This document shows, in pieces, positions 6,963 through 59,245 of a stretch of DNA of 64,000 nucleotides. The translations under genes and the position numbers were made by a program. The notes under the pieces are model-generated. The model was given only the letters and a program-made list of their open reading frames with translations. It had not been told where the DNA came from and did no database searches. How positions within the stretch are numbered: the stretch's first letter is position 1; the number at the start of each line of letters is the position of its first letter. The stretch is from a virus (lineage: Duplodnaviria; Caudoviricetes): positions 782 to 64,781 of the IMG/VR virus record IMGVR_UViG_3300009151_000071; one strand, written 5' to 3'.

Positions 6963-6970
6963 AAATTTAT

Positions 6971-7816
6971 TTATTGTGTATTAAGGATTGAACGTACTAA
7001 ATCTAACTGCTCTTGCGATAAATTTTGTGGTACTGCTATGGCTAATTCTACATATAAATTACCTCGTTGAGACGAGTTCATTATATATAACCCTTGTTCA
7101 GCTAATCGAAATTTCATACCAGGCTGTGCGCCAGCTGGTAATGTTAATTCGAATATTTTGCCATCTAAGCCATCTACAGTAACTTTGCCACCTATTGTTG
7201 CTAGTAAGCAGTTTACACTAATCTTGGTGTGTAAGTCAATGCCATTGACAATAAAATTGTCCGCATTATGAACATTTATTTGAACATACAAATCACCTCT
7301 TGGAATGGTGTTAAATAGATTATCACCTAACCCTGAATATCTAATACTAGTTCCGTTAGTTATACCACGTGGTATTTTAACTTCAACTGTAGTAGTTTCG
7401 CCACTAGTAGTTTTTACCTGTACTGTTTTAGTTTGTTCTTCTAGTGTAGTTACTAACGGAACTGGAATTTCAATACGTAGATCTTTATTACGACGTTGTT
7501 GCGGTCTCTGATGAAATTCAAATGGGCTCCCACCAAATCCAAACCCACGGAATATGTCGGCTATATCTGGGTGACTCATATCACCACTGTGGAAATGGAA
7601 TTGTGTGCCACCACCGCCAAATCCATTTTGTTGCATATCATATTGTTGACGCTTATTAGTGTCACTTAACGTATCGTATGCTGATTGAATTTCTTGGAAT
7701 TTAGTTTTGTCGCCGCCCTTGTCTGGGTGGTGTTGACTTGCCAGCTTACGATAAGCCTTTTTAATTTCATCAGGTTTGGCGTCTTTGGCAACGCCAAGAA
7801 TTTCGTAATAAGTCAT
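6971..7816 (-). CDS. DnaJ/CbpA-class co-chaperone (J domain plus C-terminal domain, no zinc finger)
   Basis: YYEILGV...KKAYRKLA...HPDKGG J domain; G/F-rich linker; GDLYV motifs. Confidence 0.9.
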   Translation of the reverse strand: MTYYEILGVAKDAKPDEIKKAYRKLASQHHPDKGGDKTKFQEIQSAYDTLSDTNKRQQYDMQQNGFGGGGTQFHFHSGDMSHPDIADIFRGFGFGGSPFEFHQRPQQRRNKDLRIEIPVPLVTTLEEQTKTVQVKTTSGETTTVEVKIPRGITNGTSIRYSGLGDNLFNTIPRGDLYVQINVHNADNFIVNGIDLHTKISVNCLLATIGGKVTVDGLDGKIFELTLPAGAQPGMKFRLAEQGLYIMNSSQRGNLYVELAIAVPQNLSQEQLDLVRSILNTQ

Positions 7817-12571: not shown

Positions 12572-12591
12572 AGTATACTTATTTATCAAGT

Positions 12592-36769: not shown

Positions 36770-36776
36770 ATAGTAT

Positions 36777-36995
36777 TTATTTGCTACGGTATACTACACG
36801 GCCTCTAGTCAAATCATATGGGCTCATTTCTACGTCTACTCGATCGCCCATTAATACACGTATATTATTCTGGCGCAATCTGCCGCCAATAACAGCTATA
36901 ATTTTATGTTCATTTTCTAATGTAACTCTAAACATTGCATTAGGTAAAACTTCGTCCACAACTCCGGACAGTTTGATAATATCGTCCTTAGCCAT
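36777..36995 (-). CDS. infA: Translation initiation factor IF-1
   Basis: MAKDDII...LPNAMFRV...[21 protein letters not shown]. Confidence 0.95.
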
Positions 36996-38476: not shown

Positions 38477-38713
38477 TTATTTATTTGACATTTCTTTTAG
38501 TTTGTCTTTAGACTCGAGAATACTAGCCTGGATAGAAATCATATTATACAGGCAAAACAACATTACTACAATACCAATTGTACCTATTATTTGTGTTCCG
38601 GTTGGATTGATATAATTTAACAACAAACTTATACCAGCCGATATAGCAGATATGCCAACAACTACTATTAAAGTTTGAACCGTTGCTTTTACAATATATT
38701 TATTTACTTTCAT
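38477..38713 (-). CDS. Small two-TM membrane protein
   Basis: Two hydrophobic segments; AGGA RBS; early promoter upstream. Confidence 0.65.
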   Translation of the reverse strand: MKVNKYIVKATVQTLIVVVGISAISAGISLLLNYINPTGTQIIGTIGIVVMLFCLYNMISIQASILESKDKLKEMSNK

Positions 38714-53265: not shown

Positions 53266-53432
53266 TTAAATTATTGTTGCAAATATTGTCGAGTCTGCAG
53301 AAAATTAATTTGGTTAATATCTTTTTTAGGCTTTTCCAAAATAAATCCCTGATCTAACATAGGCTTTATCTGCGCTAGGTACGTATTATAAAACAACTTA
53401 TTGTTTACTTGATAGCCGATCATATTTGAAAT

Positions 53433-53455
53433 AAAAAGAAGCCCCCGGAGGGGCT
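53433..53455 (-). terminator. Terminator closing the tmRNA coding piece
   Basis: agcccc-cgga-ggggct followed by TCTTTTT on the minus strand. Confidence 0.8.
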
Positions 53456-53672
53456 GGTTGTTTCTGTTACGAGGTATTTCCTACCCTAAGTGGCTGTTAG
53501 GCCGCTAATGCGAACTGTGCGTCGTTTGCGTTTACGTTTTTTGCTTCTACGACCAGGCTCCGTCTTTCTATGCTATGGGCATAGCGACTAAAGTTACCCT
53601 AATCCTAACGGGTTTCACATTCCCGTGCTGTCTGCTTGACTACTTACCGCCCTGTCGAAACTATGCAGGCCC
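53456..53672 (-). ncRNA. ssrA: tmRNA coding piece of a permuted two-piece gene; tag ANDAQFALAA* at 53529..53497
   Basis: Begins GGGCCUG-CAUAGUUUCGAC; UAAAC|GCA resume context; tag ends FALAA-UAA. Confidence 0.9.
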
Positions 53673-53685
53673 ATCATAAAGAATC

Positions 53686-54021
53686 TTACTTATTGCGACT
53701 TGCCCAAAATGCCTCACTATCGGGTGATAGCACATCGCTTGGAACTACGGTATTACCTAGTTTTTTTGCATAATTGTACATCATACTAGCAATACCTTGC
53801 CTACGAAATTTAGGATCGACCAAAACTTTATCAGCTGTTAAGTTTTTCCCAGTGATGCTAAAGATAGCATAACCAACCTTTTCACCTGATTTCGTATACG
53901 CTTCAATATTTAGAATTCCGGGTGTAGTAACAAAGGATCTAAAATCAAAGGCATCAGTTTTAACCCAATCGTTAAATCTAGTACCTCTTTTCAATCCAGG
54001 CATTATTTCGTTAATTTGCAT
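53686..54021 (-). CDS. GNAT-family acetyltransferase inside the tmRNA intervening segment
   Basis: V-x-V-D-P-K-F-R-R-Q-G-I-A acetyl-CoA motif A; S-x-x-L-S-x-D-x-x-A-F-W; own TAAATA upstream. Confidence 0.8.
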   Translation of the reverse strand: MQINEIMPGLKRGTRFNDWVKTDAFDFRSFVTTPGILNIEAYTKSGEKVGYAIFSITGKNLTADKVLVDPKFRRQGIASMMYNYAKKLGNTVVPSDVLSPDSEAFWASRNK

Positions 54022-54044
54022 TTAGTATTTATTCAAATTCCTTA

Positions 54045-54108
54045 TGGTGGACCTGGGGGGATTCGCACCCCCGTCCAAGACGCCTTTCGGCTTGCTTCAT
54101 ACAACAAT
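54045..54108 (-). ncRNA. ssrA: tmRNA acceptor piece of a permuted two-piece gene
   Basis: GAC-GGGGG-UGCGAAU-CCCCC-CAGGUCC-A-CCA: T arm, G3.U70 Ala determinant, encoded CCA; TATAAT at 54121..54116. Confidence 0.9.
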
Positions 54109-54123
54109 AACTTATATTATATG

Positions 54124-54753
54124 TTATTTATTAGTTAAAGTCAATTGATACACAAAACAAATCCGGGGATCTGTATTCTTATGCTCGCTTACTCCATGAC
54201 AGACTTCTGGGCCGTGCATAATCAGGTCTCCCGAACTAGGAGTAATATATTCCTTGTGTATTTCGTCTATGTCCGATGGCAATTTTCCAGTACAGTCTTG
54301 ATCAACAATAATCAAACTGCTACCGCCCGGTGGGTTATTAACATAAAACACAGCAACTAAATCGGGAGTTGTTAATTGATTGTTTGTAGCTACATGATTG
54401 TGACATCGCCCTTGGCTATTAATTTCCATTCGGTTGGTCCAGGACCTATCAACGTCAACTGACTTGACTTTCAACAATTCAGTTGCTTGTTGCTTAATCC
54501 AGGTTAAAAGATCTTGTGCGTCGGGAAGGTTAGCTGGACCTAGATAAGGAATAACTTCGCTAGTTTCGCCTTCGCCGTAGTGGCTGTCCCAAACTTGCCC
54601 ACGATCTCGATTTTTAACTTCAGACAGTTCCATTATGTTACGGATACCTTGATCTAATCCAGCATTGTTGTACCAGTGCTGGTGAGGGCAATGTACTACT
54701 GCAATATCATGGCCAAATAGCTTATACACTTGCATGACCGATTCCTTGTGCAA
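54124..54753 (-). CDS. 2OG-Fe(II) oxygenase-family protein (TIGR02466-like)
   Basis: SWTN, HNH, AVFYV, P-x-x-GDL-x-x-x-P...HGV...R-I-C. Confidence 0.75.
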   Translation of the reverse strand: MHKESVMQVYKLFGHDIAVVHCPHQHWYNNAGLDQGIRNIMELSEVKNRDRGQVWDSHYGEGETSEVIPYLGPANLPDAQDLLTWIKQQATELLKVKSVDVDRSWTNRMEINSQGRCHNHVATNNQLTTPDLVAVFYVNNPPGGSSLIIVDQDCTGKLPSDIDEIHKEYITPSSGDLIMHGPEVCHGVSEHKNTDPRICFVYQLTLTNK

Positions 54754-55879
54754 CTGAGTTCCAATTATGATCGTTAAATGTTTTTAGAACACCCGGTGCT
54801 GGCCTTACAAACTCTTGGGCATGATCAAACGCTTGCCAAAATGGTGAATCGTTACGTCCTGACAAGTAGTGAAAATGCAAGAAGTCGGCAATGTCTCTGT
54901 TCATTGTGTTGACTGCTTGATTGTATTGTCTACGAGCATCTGCGTCGTTGTTTAGTATTCCTGATATTTTTGTAGCCAACAAGTTAAGACTGGCAGTTTG
55001 TACCCAAATGCTAGTTTCTTCTAACGGTTCGCTAAATCCCGAGCTCAGGCCAATGGCAACACAATTTGCTACCCAGGTTTGATCATAACAGCCAGCATCA
55101 AAACTAAATTGCCTAGGGCTCACAATCTCGTGACCGTAATACTCTTCTAACTCTTGATGTATTTGTTCATCGGTAGCACAACTGCTGTCAAAAACATAGC
55201 CGCATCCATATCGTCCCTGTACAGGAATGCGCCACATCCATCCATGGCGCATAGCTACAGCTTCGGTATAGGTTGGCAAATCCACTCCGGCATTGGGTAA
55301 AAAGAACGGCATAGCTCGATCGACTGGCAGTATAGATTGATACGATGTCCATTTAGTAGCATAATGCTTGCCAATGATTAAGCGAGCAAAACCCGAGCAA
55401 TCAAACACAAAATCTACTGGGACTGTAGTTTGATCTTTAAGCACTAAACCAGTAATAGTGTCACTGCCTGTTACAGCAACAACTTCGCTGTCAATTAATT
55501 TAATACCACGTGCTAAGCCTTGTGTTTGTAAAAACTTGGCCAGCAGGTTAGCGTCAAAATGCAACGCTCGATCGCCCATGCCCGAATCTGCTAAAAAATT
55601 ATGATCATAATAATCATTTACTCCACGCCAGTTTACAAAACGTATTCCGTTCTTAACTGTACCACGGGCCTGTGCAATAATGTCTAAAGGATTAATACCA
55701 ATCTGATTTAAAAAGTTTACAAATGGTGGAGTGGTTCCTTCGCCGGCACCTAATATGCCAATTTCACTGCTGGCTATTACAGTAACTTCGCTATAGGGAA
55801 ATTGTGACTTGACAAATAGTGCGGTGAGCCACCCAGCGGTGCCGCCACCAACTACTGCGTATTCAAGATTGGTCTTCAT
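54722..55879 (-). CDS. Flavin-dependent (tryptophan halogenase-family) enzyme
   Basis: VVGGGTAG, GAGEGT, catalytic-Lys motif TVKNGI, FDCSGF, GWMWRIP (WxWxIP), GFSEPLE. Confidence 0.85.
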   Translation of the reverse strand: MKTNLEYAVVGGGTAGWLTALFVKSQFPYSEVTVIASSEIGILGAGEGTTPPFVNFLNQIGINPLDIIAQARGTVKNGIRFVNWRGVNDYYDHNFLADSGMGDRALHFDANLLAKFLQTQGLARGIKLIDSEVVAVTGSDTITGLVLKDQTTVPVDFVFDCSGFARLIIGKHYATKWTSYQSILPVDRAMPFFLPNAGVDLPTYTEAVAMRHGWMWRIPVQGRYGCGYVFDSSCATDEQIHQELEEYYGHEIVSPRQFSFDAGCYDQTWVANCVAIGLSSGFSEPLEETSIWVQTASLNLLATKISGILNNDADARRQYNQAVNTMNRDIADFLHFHYLSGRNDSPFWQAFDHAQEFVRPAPGVLKTFNDHNWNSVAQGIGHASV

Positions 55880-56468
55880 GTATGATTCTAATATCCATTA
55901 CTACAGATATTCTATTTTCTGTGCTTAGATTTGTTTCAACGCTGTGGAATAGATAGTTAGGAAACATAAGTAAGGTTCCAACTTTTGGCTCAACACGGTA
56001 ATAGATTCTGCCGGTGCGCCCTTCGCTATCGGCTGTTACTAAGGGTTCTTGCCATGCTAGATTAACTGAACCTCGGGCATCAAGTAGCAGTAAGTCTCCA
56101 GAGTTAGGCGGGCAGTCAACATAGTAAATTCCTACCATGTCTAGGTCACTGTGGTGATGTGGGGTATCGCACCGACCTGGTGCTATAACATTATGTCTGG
56201 TACGTAAGTCTAAATTGTACTCGGGCCATCGACGTTCTTGTGCAATTGACTCTATAGCATCTACTGTATACTGTCTTAATGCGCTTGTACCGTAACCGGC
56301 AAAGTCCAGGAAACTATAGTGCTTGGTATGTACAGGATTAATCTTCTGTTGTTCGTTGACATGCTGACTAAAGTTTAATCCATCGAGCCTAACTAACTCT
56401 GCTAGTTCCGGCTGGCTCGCTGATAAATCAAAGGTCCAGAGTGGACTACTGAATAACTCTATTTTCAT
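55863..56468 (-). CDS. 2OG-Fe(II) oxygenase-family protein (TIGR02466-like)
   Basis: LFSSP, PHHH, GIYYV, GDLLLLDAR, P-x-x-G-x-L-x-x-FP-x-YL-x-HSV...NRIS. Confidence 0.8.
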   Translation of the reverse strand: MKIELFSSPLWTFDLSASQPELAELVRLDGLNFSQHVNEQQKINPVHTKHYSFLDFAGYGTSALRQYTVDAIESIAQERRWPEYNLDLRTRHNVIAPGRCDTPHHHSDLDMVGIYYVDCPPNSGDLLLLDARGSVNLAWQEPLVTADSEGRTGRIYYRVEPKVGTLLMFPNYLFHSVETNLSTENRISVVMDIRIIHEDQS

Positions 56469-59221: not shown

Positions 59222-59227
59222 TATTTA
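59222..59227 (-). promoter_or_regulatory. T4-like late promoter core (TAAATA) for the Cys-rich/rSAM operon
   Basis: gaTAAATAgttatATG; the motif recurs before many late genes (e.g. near 2436, 12580, 27607, 30388, 35851, 36774, 54026). Confidence 0.65.
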
Positions 59228-59245
59228 TCAACGACGTTGAACTAC

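What the first reader, a model, noticed from the sequence alone, without database searches (positions are those of the whole stretch)
53673..54044. A complete GNAT acetyltransferase gene sits in the excised loop of the tmRNA precursor
Seen: the intervening segment is almost entirely a 111-aa GNAT ORF with its own TAAATA. Its ends (CAUAAGGAAU overlapping the CCA, AUUCUUUAUG before G1) are complementary and extend the acceptor helix by about 12 bp, looping out the ORF. Known: intervening segments of two-piece tmRNAs are normally short non-coding spacers removed by RNase P and 3' trimming; some GNAT toxins acetylate aminoacyl-tRNA. Inference: tmRNA maturation releases a small mRNA, so the loop is a cargo slot; the GNAT may act on translation components or be a variable passenger.
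Basis: partly seen in the sequence, partly recalled or inferred. Interest (0 to 1): 0.85.

Follow-up and report, generated by a model that had tools for sequence, protein, structure and literature searches.

The report
Acetyltransferase gene inside phage tmRNA spacer
A large uncultured freshwater phage carries a two-piece ribosome-rescue RNA (tmRNA) gene whose normally discarded spacer holds a real small acetyltransferase gene, and related phages use the same stem-closed spacer as a slot for many other small genes.

Summary
Rfam finds a complete circularly permuted tmRNA at 53497-54106 (-), 95.6 bits. Its intervening segment (53673-54044, 372 nt) is 90% filled by a 111-codon ORF that passes Pfam's GNAT cut-offs and folds as a GNAT core. 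The segment's ends pair and extend the acceptor stem by about 12 bp.

Contigs from three independent metagenome runs bridge the ORF and both tmRNA pieces, so it is not a misassembly.

The GNAT looks like a passenger:
- A cassette about 93% identical in DNA stands free, outside any tmRNA, in locus L023.
- 0 of 55 other viral loci of the wider GNAT family lie in a tmRNA.
- Relatives' tmRNAs hold other cargo. Of 88 phage spacers of at least 40 nt, 36 start an ORF just after the CCA.
- Five spacers share the window's leader but encode unrelated proteins of 101-152 aa.

Whether maturation releases a translated mRNA is untested. No link between the GNAT and translation was found. I found no published report. 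This scan had already noted the same slot on other DNA.

The parts
54116..54144 (-). Sigma-70-like promoter TTGACT-17 nt-TATAAT in front of the tmRNA gene
   Evidence: 11 of 12 consensus positions and the only promoter-like site in 53300-54300. A consensus match only; function is inferred.
54045..54106 (-). tmRNA acceptor piece: 5' pairing strand, T-arm, 3' acceptor strand CAGGUCC and encoded ACCA (CCA = 54047-54045)
   Evidence: Rfam alignment. The T-arm and acceptor pattern is identical to that of relatives L019 and L099.
53673..54044 (-). Intervening segment (372 nt) that must be removed to make the two-piece tmRNA
   Evidence: Spacers of the relatives are 4-342 nt, 402 nt in L327 and 494 nt in L326.
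54035..54044 (-). 5' strand of the closing helix (UAAGGAAUUU), directly after the CCA; contains AAGGA
54026..54032 (-). ATAAATA element 4 nt upstream of the ATG (phage promoter-like; its role is inferred)
   Evidence: 9 of 24 ATAAATA sites in the window are followed within 4-8 nt by an ATG that opens an ORF of 50 aa or more. Scrambled 7-mers give 0-7 of 17-39 sites. The same element stands before the free-standing copy in L023 and before other cargo genes.
53686..54021 (-). 111-aa mini-GNAT gene (stop TAA 53688-53686)
53673..53685 (-). 3' strand of the closing helix (GAUUCUUUAUGAU), ending 1 nt before G1
53456..53672 (-). tmRNA coding piece: 5' acceptor strand GGGCCUG (G3.U70), pairing strand, tag frame, 3' domain
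   Evidence: Rfam alignment and alignment A1.
53497..53529 (-). Tag reading frame, read as ANDAQFALAA plus stop
   Evidence: Read from the sequence in register with ARAGORN's tags ANDSQFALAA and ANDEQFALAA of relatives L019 and L020. ARAGORN itself does not call the window's gene.
53440..53455 (-). Intrinsic-terminator-like hairpin followed by a T run
   Evidence: It aligns with terminator hairpins behind the relatives' tmRNAs.

Best explanation
This is an intact, phage-encoded, betaproteobacterial-type two-piece tmRNA gene with its own sigma-70-like promoter and terminator. It lies in a fragment of a freshwater jumbo phage of roughly 350 kb. In phages of this kind the spacer between the CCA of the acceptor piece and G1 of the coding piece is closed by a 10-13-bp helix that prolongs the acceptor stem. 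The loop of that helix serves as an insertion and expression slot for small genes. In this phage the slot holds a real 111-codon mini-GNAT gene. It arrived as a cassette (ATAAATA leader plus ORF) that stands free in another phage contig, so it is a passenger and not a part of the tmRNA mechanism. Inferred steps: host RNA polymerase makes the whole precursor. RNase P cuts at G1 (between 53673 and 53672), and 3' processing trims the acceptor piece to CCA (54045). This frees the two tmRNA pieces and a spacer RNA of about 370 nt. The GNAT is translated either from that precursor or spacer RNA, or more likely from a short-leader or leaderless transcript started at its own ATAAATA element. Such a transcript would run on into the coding piece until RNase P cuts it 13 nt after the stop codon. 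The GNAT probably binds acetyl-CoA and acetylates an unknown target.
For: tmRNA: full-model Rfam hit of 95.6 bits. G3.U70 acceptor stem, T-arm, ACCA and an ...ALAA tag frame are all present. Promoter and terminator. Phage origin: the window is a virus record with 18% estimated completeness. Relatives of 342 and 345 kb share the neighbouring 219-aa gene at 73% identity and have permuted tmRNAs elsewhere in their genomes. Real gene: Pfam GNAT above both cut-offs. Four metagenomic homologues at 65-97% identity have no frame breaks and 62 invariant columns. 516 representative clusters match at E<=1e-3. The PDB profile's best hit is RibT at 2.8e-5. AlphaFold pLDDT is 77 and all top Foldseek hits are GNATs, with TM 0.5-0.58. 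Passenger: L023 has the cassette (89% aa identity) without any Rfam hit; likeness starts about 20 nt before the ATG and ends at the stop. 0 of 55 viral loci of the wider family have tmRNA flanks by regex, with a positive control on the window, and 0 of 20 by Rfam. Slot: in 95 distinct spacers a sense ORF fills 60% or more of the spacer in 29 cases, against 3 antisense. 36 of 88 spacers have an ATG within 25 nt of the CCA that opens 20 or more codons. Of these, 26 of 36 have an SD-like 4-mer in the first 10 nt, against 10 of 52 for the rest. One cargo family matches Pfam CxxCxxCC, with codon-position differences 13/11/36. L099, L318, L333, L327 and L326 share the window's leader but encode unrelated proteins of 101, 125 and 152 aa; four of the five are confirmed by Rfam. 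Not an artefact: an X2 contig of 414 nt with 0 differences covers 53654-54067, an X1 contig of 374 nt covers 53683-54056, and an X7 contig of 658 nt covers 53666-54077. The three runs come from three studies.
Against: No direct evidence that the tmRNA is processed or active with a 372-nt spacer. ARAGORN does not call it. The clade-specific model RF01850 did not reach its gathering score in the window, although it does in the relatives. The Rfam alignment marks three non-standard pairs in one helix. Window versus L023 shows 12 synonymous and 13 non-synonymous codon differences (by position 13/4/12), which is no clear sign of purifying selection on that close pair. The case for selection rests on the wider family. 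The Pfam scores are only just above the cut-offs, and the protein lacks the N-terminal helices of a full GNAT. The RNA evidence is two single contigs in one run. Some of the 36 'ORF-bearing' spacers have frames that run past G1 into the tmRNA body, and these could be chance.
Confidence: 0.75

Rival explanations
1. The tmRNA gene has been inactivated by insertion of a moron (the GNAT cassette). What remains is a decaying tmRNA gene around a functional GNAT gene.
For: The spacer is far longer than in cellular permuted genes. Four cellular examples with the same T-arm pattern have 3-4 nt. The four strong hits in the order of G006 span 185-223 nt in all. ARAGORN and RF01850 do not call the window's gene. 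The cassette is mobile.
Against: Every modelled element is present and the full model is matched. The insertion sits exactly in the loop and leaves the closing helix paired at 8 of 8 positions. Four other tmRNAs with 342-494-nt coding spacers still pass Rfam at 65-110 bits. The arrangement is present in three runs, one with 6 differences over 412 nt, so it has persisted.
Confidence: 0.1
2. The GNAT is functionally tied to trans-translation or translation. It would acetylate Ala-tmRNA, aminoacyl-tRNA, SmpB or a ribosomal protein, and is placed in the spacer so that it is made together with the tmRNA.
For: Physical nesting in one transcription unit. Weak sub-threshold likeness to RimI-type ribosomal-protein acetyltransferases (TIGR01575 at 16.5 bits against a cut-off of 86.4; RimI structures among the Foldseek hits). 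Earlier notes of this scan report acetyltransferase-like cargo in two other genomes; I did not test these.
Against: The same gene stands free of any tmRNA in L023. 0 of 55 loci of the wider family are in a tmRNA. The slot holds unrelated cargo in relatives. No GNAT toxin appears among the 60 PDB profile hits shown, of 62 at E<=1. No PADLOC hit. The module also occurs as repeats in giant phage proteins.
Confidence: 0.08
3. Assembly chimera: the contig was joined wrongly at tmRNA segments that many co-occurring phages share.
For: Depth at the conserved T-arm and tag regions is 40-200 times that of the flanks, and Logan contigs break there. Joints that skip the spacer come from abundant relatives.
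Against: Single contigs from three runs of three studies carry the ORF together with both helix strands, the first bases of the coding piece and the T-arm. The flanks have the same depth as the ORF contig (X2: 8.5, 8.6, 11.4).
Confidence: 0.02
4. The ORF is a chance or dead frame and the spacer is only a long structured RNA.
For: A close pair shows equal synonymous and non-synonymous change.
Against: 0 of 200 shuffles of the spacer reach a 111-codon frame. Pfam, PDB profile and fold evidence all point to GNAT. Homologues down to 30% identity keep the core R-R-Q-G-I-A ... P-S ... A-F-W.
Confidence: 0.03

Closest known systems
Circularly permuted (two-piece) tmRNA genes: Rfam RF04321, beta type RF01850; known in Alphaproteobacteria, some Betaproteobacteria, Cyanobacteria and aquatic phages such as OM43 phage Melnitz (PMC9004378, passages read; PMC11915505, passages read)
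   Same: Gene order acceptor piece, spacer, coding piece. G3.U70 acceptor stem, T-arm, encoded CCA and an ...ALAA tag. One precursor that must be cut into two pieces.
   Different: The spacer is 372 nt and 90% protein-coding. The cellular examples I saw have 3-4 nt. The database paper mentions only a tRNA-Ala gene and a repetitive element inside spacers, and the term 'ORF' occurs 0 times in its text. Its supplements were not seen.
Homing-endonuclease genes inside group I introns of tmRNA genes (PMC11915505, passages read)
   Same: A protein gene nested in a part of the tmRNA gene that is absent from the mature RNA.
   Different: There the ORF serves the mobility of a self-splicing intron in the T-loop. 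Here there is no intron: the host segment is removed by tRNA-type end processing, and the cargo is diverse and not a nuclease.
Operons in which tRNAs and mRNAs share a transcript and are separated by RNase P, for example the E. coli tufB operon and the phage T4 tRNA region (recalled, not looked up)
   Same: A stable RNA and a messenger made from one transcript and separated by RNase P.
   Different: Here the messenger lies between the two halves of a single stable RNA and is enclosed by a helix made of that RNA's own flanks.
Small GNAT acetyltransferases such as Bacillus subtilis RibT (PDB 5xxr)
   Same: Acetyl-CoA-binding core: beta sheet, helix with R-x-x-G-x-A, following strand and helix. 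Best profile hit 2.8e-5; TM 0.54-0.58 with rmsd 2.3-2.4 over about 80 residues.
   Different: 18-19% identity, 111 aa, and no N-terminal helices. The substrate is unknown. The family also occurs as repeated modules in phage proteins of up to about 3400 aa.

Membership tests
Permuted two-piece tmRNA (RF04321) | Covariance-model score above the gathering score over the full model | tested here: met
   95.6 bits against 47, model positions 1-213
Permuted two-piece tmRNA (RF04321) | Alanine-type acceptor stem with G3.U70, T-arm, discriminator A and CCA | tested here: met
   GGGCCUG paired with CAGGUCC-ACCA; T-arm GGGGG-UGCGAAU-CCCCC
Permuted two-piece tmRNA (RF04321) | Tag reading frame ending in a proteolysis tag and a stop | tested here: met
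   ANDAQFALAA plus stop at 53529-53497, in register with the ARAGORN tags of L019 and L020. ARAGORN itself does not call the window.
Permuted two-piece tmRNA (RF04321) | Short non-coding intervening segment | tested here: not met
   372 nt, of which 336 nt are ORF plus stop
Betaproteobacterial subtype (RF01850) | Score above that model's gathering score (84 bits) | tested here: not met
   Not listed for the window, though met by relatives L001, L018, L019 and L020. The long insertion may be the reason.
Permuted two-piece tmRNA (RF04321) | Processing into two pieces, alanylation, SmpB-dependent tagging | not testable with these tools
   -
GNAT acetyltransferase superfamily | Pfam GNAT model above its curated cut-off | tested here: met
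   PF13508 at 28.5 against 27; PF00583 at 26.6 against 20.7
GNAT acetyltransferase superfamily | Acetyl-CoA pyrophosphate-binding motif (R/Q)-x-x-G-x-(G/A); the motif is recalled | tested here: met
   R73-R-Q-G-I-A78; G76 is nearly invariant among 26 family members
GNAT acetyltransferase superfamily | GNAT fold | tested here: met
   Model pLDDT 77. All listed Foldseek PDB hits are GNATs; 3 have E<=1e-3.
GNAT acetyltransferase superfamily | Complete fold with the N-terminal strand and two helices (about 150 aa or more) | tested here: not met
   111 aa. The model has one 4-residue helix before five strands. Pfam matches cover only residues 41-87.
GNAT toxins of toxin-antitoxin pairs that acetylate aminoacyl-tRNA (TacT, AtaT, ItaT type; names recalled) | Sequence or profile likeness to solved members | tested here: not met
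   None among the 60 hits shown, of 62 at E<=1; no PADLOC family
GNAT toxins of toxin-antitoxin pairs that acetylate aminoacyl-tRNA (TacT, AtaT, ItaT type; names recalled) | Adjacent antitoxin gene | tested here: not met
   The ORF is the only frame of 40 aa or more on its strand in the spacer; the tmRNA pieces flank it
T4-type capsid-targeted internal proteins (PMC9026906) | Short N-terminal propeptide ending in L/I-X-E, cut by a gp21-type prohead protease | tested here: inconclusive
   The GNAT starts M-Q-I-N-E (I-N-E at residues 3-5). Cargo with the same leader starts MRIKELTES, MRIKDIVTES or MRINEILIES. Peptidase_S77 is found in relatives G001, G002 and G151 but not in the 18%-complete own record.

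The most novel reading that the evidence does not exclude
The stem-closed spacer of phage two-piece tmRNA genes is a dedicated, exchangeable gene slot. Its ribosome-binding site and stop codon are built into the processing helix in the small-ORF type, or a late-type ATAAATA leader is used in the large-ORF type. In this reading, expression of the cargo is coupled to, or competes with, tmRNA maturation. The large cargo proteins, including this GNAT, share an N-terminus of the form M-R-I-x-E-(I/L)... that contains L/I-X-E sites. They may therefore be capsid-targeted internal proteins that are cut by the T4-type prohead protease and injected with the DNA, so that the GNAT would acetylate a host target at the very start of infection.
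Probability: 0.2. Interest if true: 0.85.

Novelty: new variant of a known kind. Interest (0 to 1): 0.75.

Why it matters
tmRNA spacers are treated as throw-away RNA, and annotation tools stop working when they are long; ARAGORN misses this gene. The data show that phages routinely place genes there, from 23-codon membrane-type peptides to enzymes of 101-152 aa. This has three consequences. One transcript can serve as stable-RNA precursor and as messenger. RNase P and 3' trimming define the messenger's ends. And a compact, naturally portable expression slot exists inside an RNA gene. This makes several questions directly testable: how processing and translation compete on one RNA, why phages carry tmRNA at all, and what the cargo proteins do. 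It also means that many small phage genes are hidden inside RNA-gene annotations.

Tried and rejected
Synteny: tblastn of eight window proteins that flank the tmRNA, against all tmRNA-bearing loci then held, gave only four weak hits and none next to a tmRNA. The tmRNA neighbourhood is therefore not conserved. In relatives G001 and G002 the tmRNA lies about 95 kb from the 219-aa gene that is its neighbour here.

The 13 loci around the 219-aa homologues hold tRNAs and the freshwater-2 motif but no tmRNA.

The GNAT is absent as a small gene from G001, G003 and G004. G002 has the module only inside ORFs of 482 and 509 aa.

L023's upstream 2.9 kb has no match in the window's own record.

Pfam found nothing for the 199-aa ORF beside the free-standing GNAT in L023, which by eye has a GIY...YIG-like start. 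The homing-endonuclease idea is not supported.

Pfam gave no significant family for the 101-, 125-, 152-, 65-, 56-, 50-, 41-, 39- and two 38-aa cargo ORFs. Sub-threshold names such as YunG or Tox-PLDMTX at E 0.03-0.07 mean nothing.

NCBIfam gave only far sub-threshold GNAT equivalogs.

The N-terminal motif M-[RKQ]-x-x-[EDQ]-[ILFV] is not general in the window: 3 of 583 ATG frames.

Cellular control by pattern: only 6 of 120 genome stretches were permuted-like. One of these is a false positive and one (L233) has a phage-like 61-nt spacer.

In the order-wide Rfam search, 8 of 141 genomes passed the cut-off. This tally includes G036, which is unpublished. Only the four hits above 150 bits are used, and nothing rests on G036.

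Joints that skip the spacer have sides under 30 letters and come from relatives. They are not evidence of an empty allele of this phage.

In the RNA run X10, parts of the stretch have no cover. That says nothing.

Literature: searches found no report of a protein gene in a tmRNA spacer. Subscription journals and supplements were not searched, and Sharkady and Williams 2004 is not held.

Full report
WHAT IS THERE

The window is 64 kb of a 64.8-kb virus record that CheckV rates 18% complete. It is therefore a fragment of a phage of roughly 350 kb. Two near-complete relatives of 345 and 342 kb share the 219-aa gene next to the finding at 73% identity.

Rfam's permuted-tmRNA model matches 53497-54106 on the minus strand end to end. 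The score is 95.6 bits against a gathering score of 47, with one long insertion between the CCA and the first G of the coding piece. ARAGORN finds nothing in the window, although it calls the short-spacer relatives.

The gene has the following parts:
- a TTGACT-17-TATAAT promoter-like site at 54144-54116 (11 of 12 consensus positions) and a terminator hairpin at 53455-53440;
- an acceptor stem GGGCCUG/CAGGUCC with G3.U70;
- a T-arm and an encoded ACCA;
- a tag frame that reads ANDAQFALAA, in register with ANDSQFALAA and ANDEQFALAA of the relatives.

The intervening segment is 54044-53673, 372 nt.

THE ORF

ORF 53686-54021 (-) has 111 codons and fills 90% of the spacer. None of 200 shuffles of the spacer gives so long a frame.
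- It passes two Pfam GNAT cut-offs narrowly: 28.5 against 27 and 26.6 against 20.7. It also hits a PHROG named acetyltransferase.
- Four metagenomic homologues at 97, 86, 73 and 65-66% identity align without frame breaks.
- An exhaustive search finds 516 representative clusters at E<=1e-3. Many are stand-alone proteins of 100-170 aa. Many others are large phage proteins with 2-10 copies of the module.
- A 26-member alignment keeps R-R-Q-G-I-A, P-S and A-F-W.
- The family profile hits solved GNATs, best RibT at 2.8e-5.
- The AlphaFold model (pLDDT 77) is a five-strand sheet with two helices. All of its listed Foldseek matches are GNATs.

It is a truncated GNAT core without the usual N-terminal helices.

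Nothing links it to the GNAT toxins that acetylate aminoacyl-tRNA. None appears among the PDB profile hits, no PADLOC family matches, and there is no neighbouring antitoxin frame.

THE HELIX

The ten bases after the CCA pair with the bases that end 4 nt before G1, at 8 of 8 positions in a fixed register. Three further pairs and one mismatch run through the CCA itself. The minimum-free-energy fold keeps this helix.

In 88 phage spacers of 40 nt or more, 84 pair at 7 or more of the 8 positions, with GC, CG, AU and UA alternatives at several positions. Mismatched partners taken from other spacers average 5.2 against 7.5 observed. The closing helix is thus a conserved, covarying feature of phage permuted tmRNA precursors.

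Cellular genes caught by the same T-arm pattern have spacers of only 3-4 nt (four cases). The four strong cellular hits in the order of G006 span only 185-223 nt in all.

NOT AN ASSEMBLY ERROR

Logan contigs from three DNA runs of three studies carry the ORF together with both helix strands, the start of the coding piece and the T-arm:
- X2: 414 nt, 0 differences, 53654-54067;
- X1: 374 nt, 53683-54056;
- X7: 658 nt, 6 differences, 53666-54077.

The flanks are present at the same depth as the ORF contig.

One metatranscriptome run holds a 151-nt contig across G1 (53630-53780) and one inside the ORF. This is compatible with an unprocessed or read-through transcript, but it is not proof of transcription.

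THE GNAT IS A PASSENGER

A metagenome contig (L023) has the same gene at 89% amino-acid identity and about 93% DNA identity. It has no Rfam hit. Likeness to the window begins about 20 nt before the ATG, at the ATAAATA element, and ends at the stop codon. The flanks are unrelated.

Of 55 viral loci that encode relatives of the wider mini-GNAT family, none has tmRNA flanks by a regex that does find the window. None of the 20 that I gave to Rfam has any hit.

THE SLOT IS GENERAL

- Of 125 pattern rows, 102 have a coding-piece start downstream, giving 95 distinct spacers of 4-372 nt.
- A sense-strand ATG frame fills 60% or more of the spacer in 29 of the 95, against 3 on the antisense strand. 28 of the 95 beat 95% of shuffles.
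- When the stop is allowed to lie beyond G1, 36 of 88 spacers have an ATG within 25 nt of the CCA that opens 20 or more codons. 26 of these 36 have an AGGA/GGAG-type 4-mer in the first ten bases, that is, inside the helix strand. Only 10 of the other 52 do.
- In many spacers the stop codon is the UGA of the conserved UGAU that precedes G1.

The cargo includes:
- an 86-aa protein that passes Pfam CxxCxxCC, with 13/11/36 differences by codon position between two copies;
- a 50-aa pair with 12/12/24 differences by codon position;
- families of 23-41-aa hydrophobic or cysteine peptides, conserved between diverged tmRNAs.

A second scan used the window's own leader (CCA, AAGGA, seven bases, TAAATAC). 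It found five more tmRNA spacers of 342-494 nt with the same leader and unrelated ORFs: a 101-aa family in three contigs, one of 125 aa and one of 152 aa. Rfam confirms four of the five. The window's GNAT is thus one of the larger loads in a widely used slot, not the largest.

HOW IT IS PROBABLY EXPRESSED (INFERENCE)

In the small-ORF spacers the helix strand supplies a ribosome-binding site 5-9 nt before the ATG. In the window, AAGGA is 17 nt away. The extra bases are the ATAAATA element, 4 nt before the ATG.

In the window, 9 of 24 ATAAATA sites are followed within 4-8 nt by an ATG that opens 50 or more codons. Scrambled 7-mers give 0-7 of 17-39 sites. The element resembles the T4 late promoter (recalled).

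I therefore think two routes are likely:
- The GNAT is mainly made from a short-leader or leaderless transcript that starts inside the tmRNA gene. This transcript runs into the coding piece and is cut by RNase P 13 nt after the stop.
- The sigma-70-type promoter makes the full precursor, which yields the two tmRNA pieces.

Neither route is shown.

A LEAD ON FUNCTION

All six large cargo ORFs with this leader, and the free-standing copy, begin M-(R/Q)-I-x-(E/D)-(I/L/V). Three unrelated ones continue to ...(T/I)-E-S. Many members of the GNAT family begin the same way.

T4 head proteins and internal proteins are cut by gp21 after L/I-X-E, and a ten-residue N-terminal sequence targets internal proteins into the capsid (PMC9026906, passages read). 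Relatives G001, G002 and G151 encode a Peptidase_S77 (gp21-type) protease at 85-96 bits. The window's own fragment does not.

The cargo might therefore be packaged, injected proteins. Equally, the shared codons may be a recombination arm or may serve translation initiation.

COMPARISON AND NOVELTY

Phage two-piece tmRNAs are known (PMC9004378, passages read). The 2025 tmRNA database paper reports a tRNA gene and a repeat element in spacers, and endonuclease genes in tmRNA introns, but the term 'ORF' occurs 0 times in its text.

Five full-text searches found no report of protein genes in tmRNA spacers. Subscription journals and supplements were not covered.

Earlier agents of this scan reached the same reading on other genomes. 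I had already made my census before reading those notes, and they agree with it.

I class the finding as a new variant of a known kind.

Noticed in passing
window, for example 6968-6974, 12580-12586, 36774-36780, 38478-38484, 59222-59228 (all minus strand): ATAAATA lies 4-8 nt before the ATG of nine ORFs of 50 aa or more, with no Shine-Dalgarno sequence between them. Other genes in the window have clear AGGAG sites. This suggests a class of short-leader or leaderless, probably late, transcripts.
   Followed up: partly
L019 (G002) 1574-1696, L082, L029, L066: A conserved peptide family (M-F-E-x-W-H-W..., membrane-like) starts 11-12 nt after the CCA. Its frame runs through the RNase P site into the mature coding piece, so cleavage would leave a non-stop message.
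   Followed up: partly
L187, L199, L211, L225 (bacterial genome contigs): Cellular beta-type permuted tmRNA genes caught by the same T-arm pattern have spacers of only 3-4 nt and no closing helix. Phage versions have 50 nt or more. L233, filed under a bacterial MAG, has a phage-like 61-nt stem-closed spacer.
   Followed up: partly
L023 2281-2880 (minus strand): A 199-aa ORF diverges from the free-standing GNAT cassette. By eye its N-terminus looks like a GIY...YIG motif, but Pfam finds no family.
   Followed up: partly
L021 403-1932 and L022 976-2424 (G002): Two adjacent ORFs of 509 and 482 aa in the 342-kb relative each contain one copy of the mini-GNAT module among other segments. In metagenomes the module occurs up to 10 times in proteins of up to about 3400 aa.
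   Followed up: no
window 54124-56468 (minus strand): Directly upstream of the tmRNA lies a cluster of a 2OG-Fe(II) oxygenase, a tryptophan-halogenase-family protein (307.8 bits) and a second 2OG-Fe(II) oxygenase. Both junctions have overlapping reading frames.
   Followed up: no
L006-L013, about 750-840 nt upstream of the 219-aa homologue: The Rfam freshwater-2 RNA motif (66-68 bits) is present on the opposite strand in eight related contigs. It is not found in the window.
   Followed up: no
L001 (Stenotrophomonas phage Marzo) 2719-3093 and L002 (Xanthomonas phage BUDD) 2642-3093: Cultured phages of gammaproteobacterial hosts carry the same beta-type permuted tmRNA with stem-closed spacers of 57 and 127 nt. 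In several deposited records the region is annotated only as tRNA-Leu or not at all.
   Followed up: partly
window 53440-53540 and 54045-54081 in runs X1, X2, X7: Depth over the conserved tmRNA parts is 40-200 times that of the flanks. Many related phage tmRNAs therefore co-occur in these lake samples, and assemblies break there.
   Followed up: no
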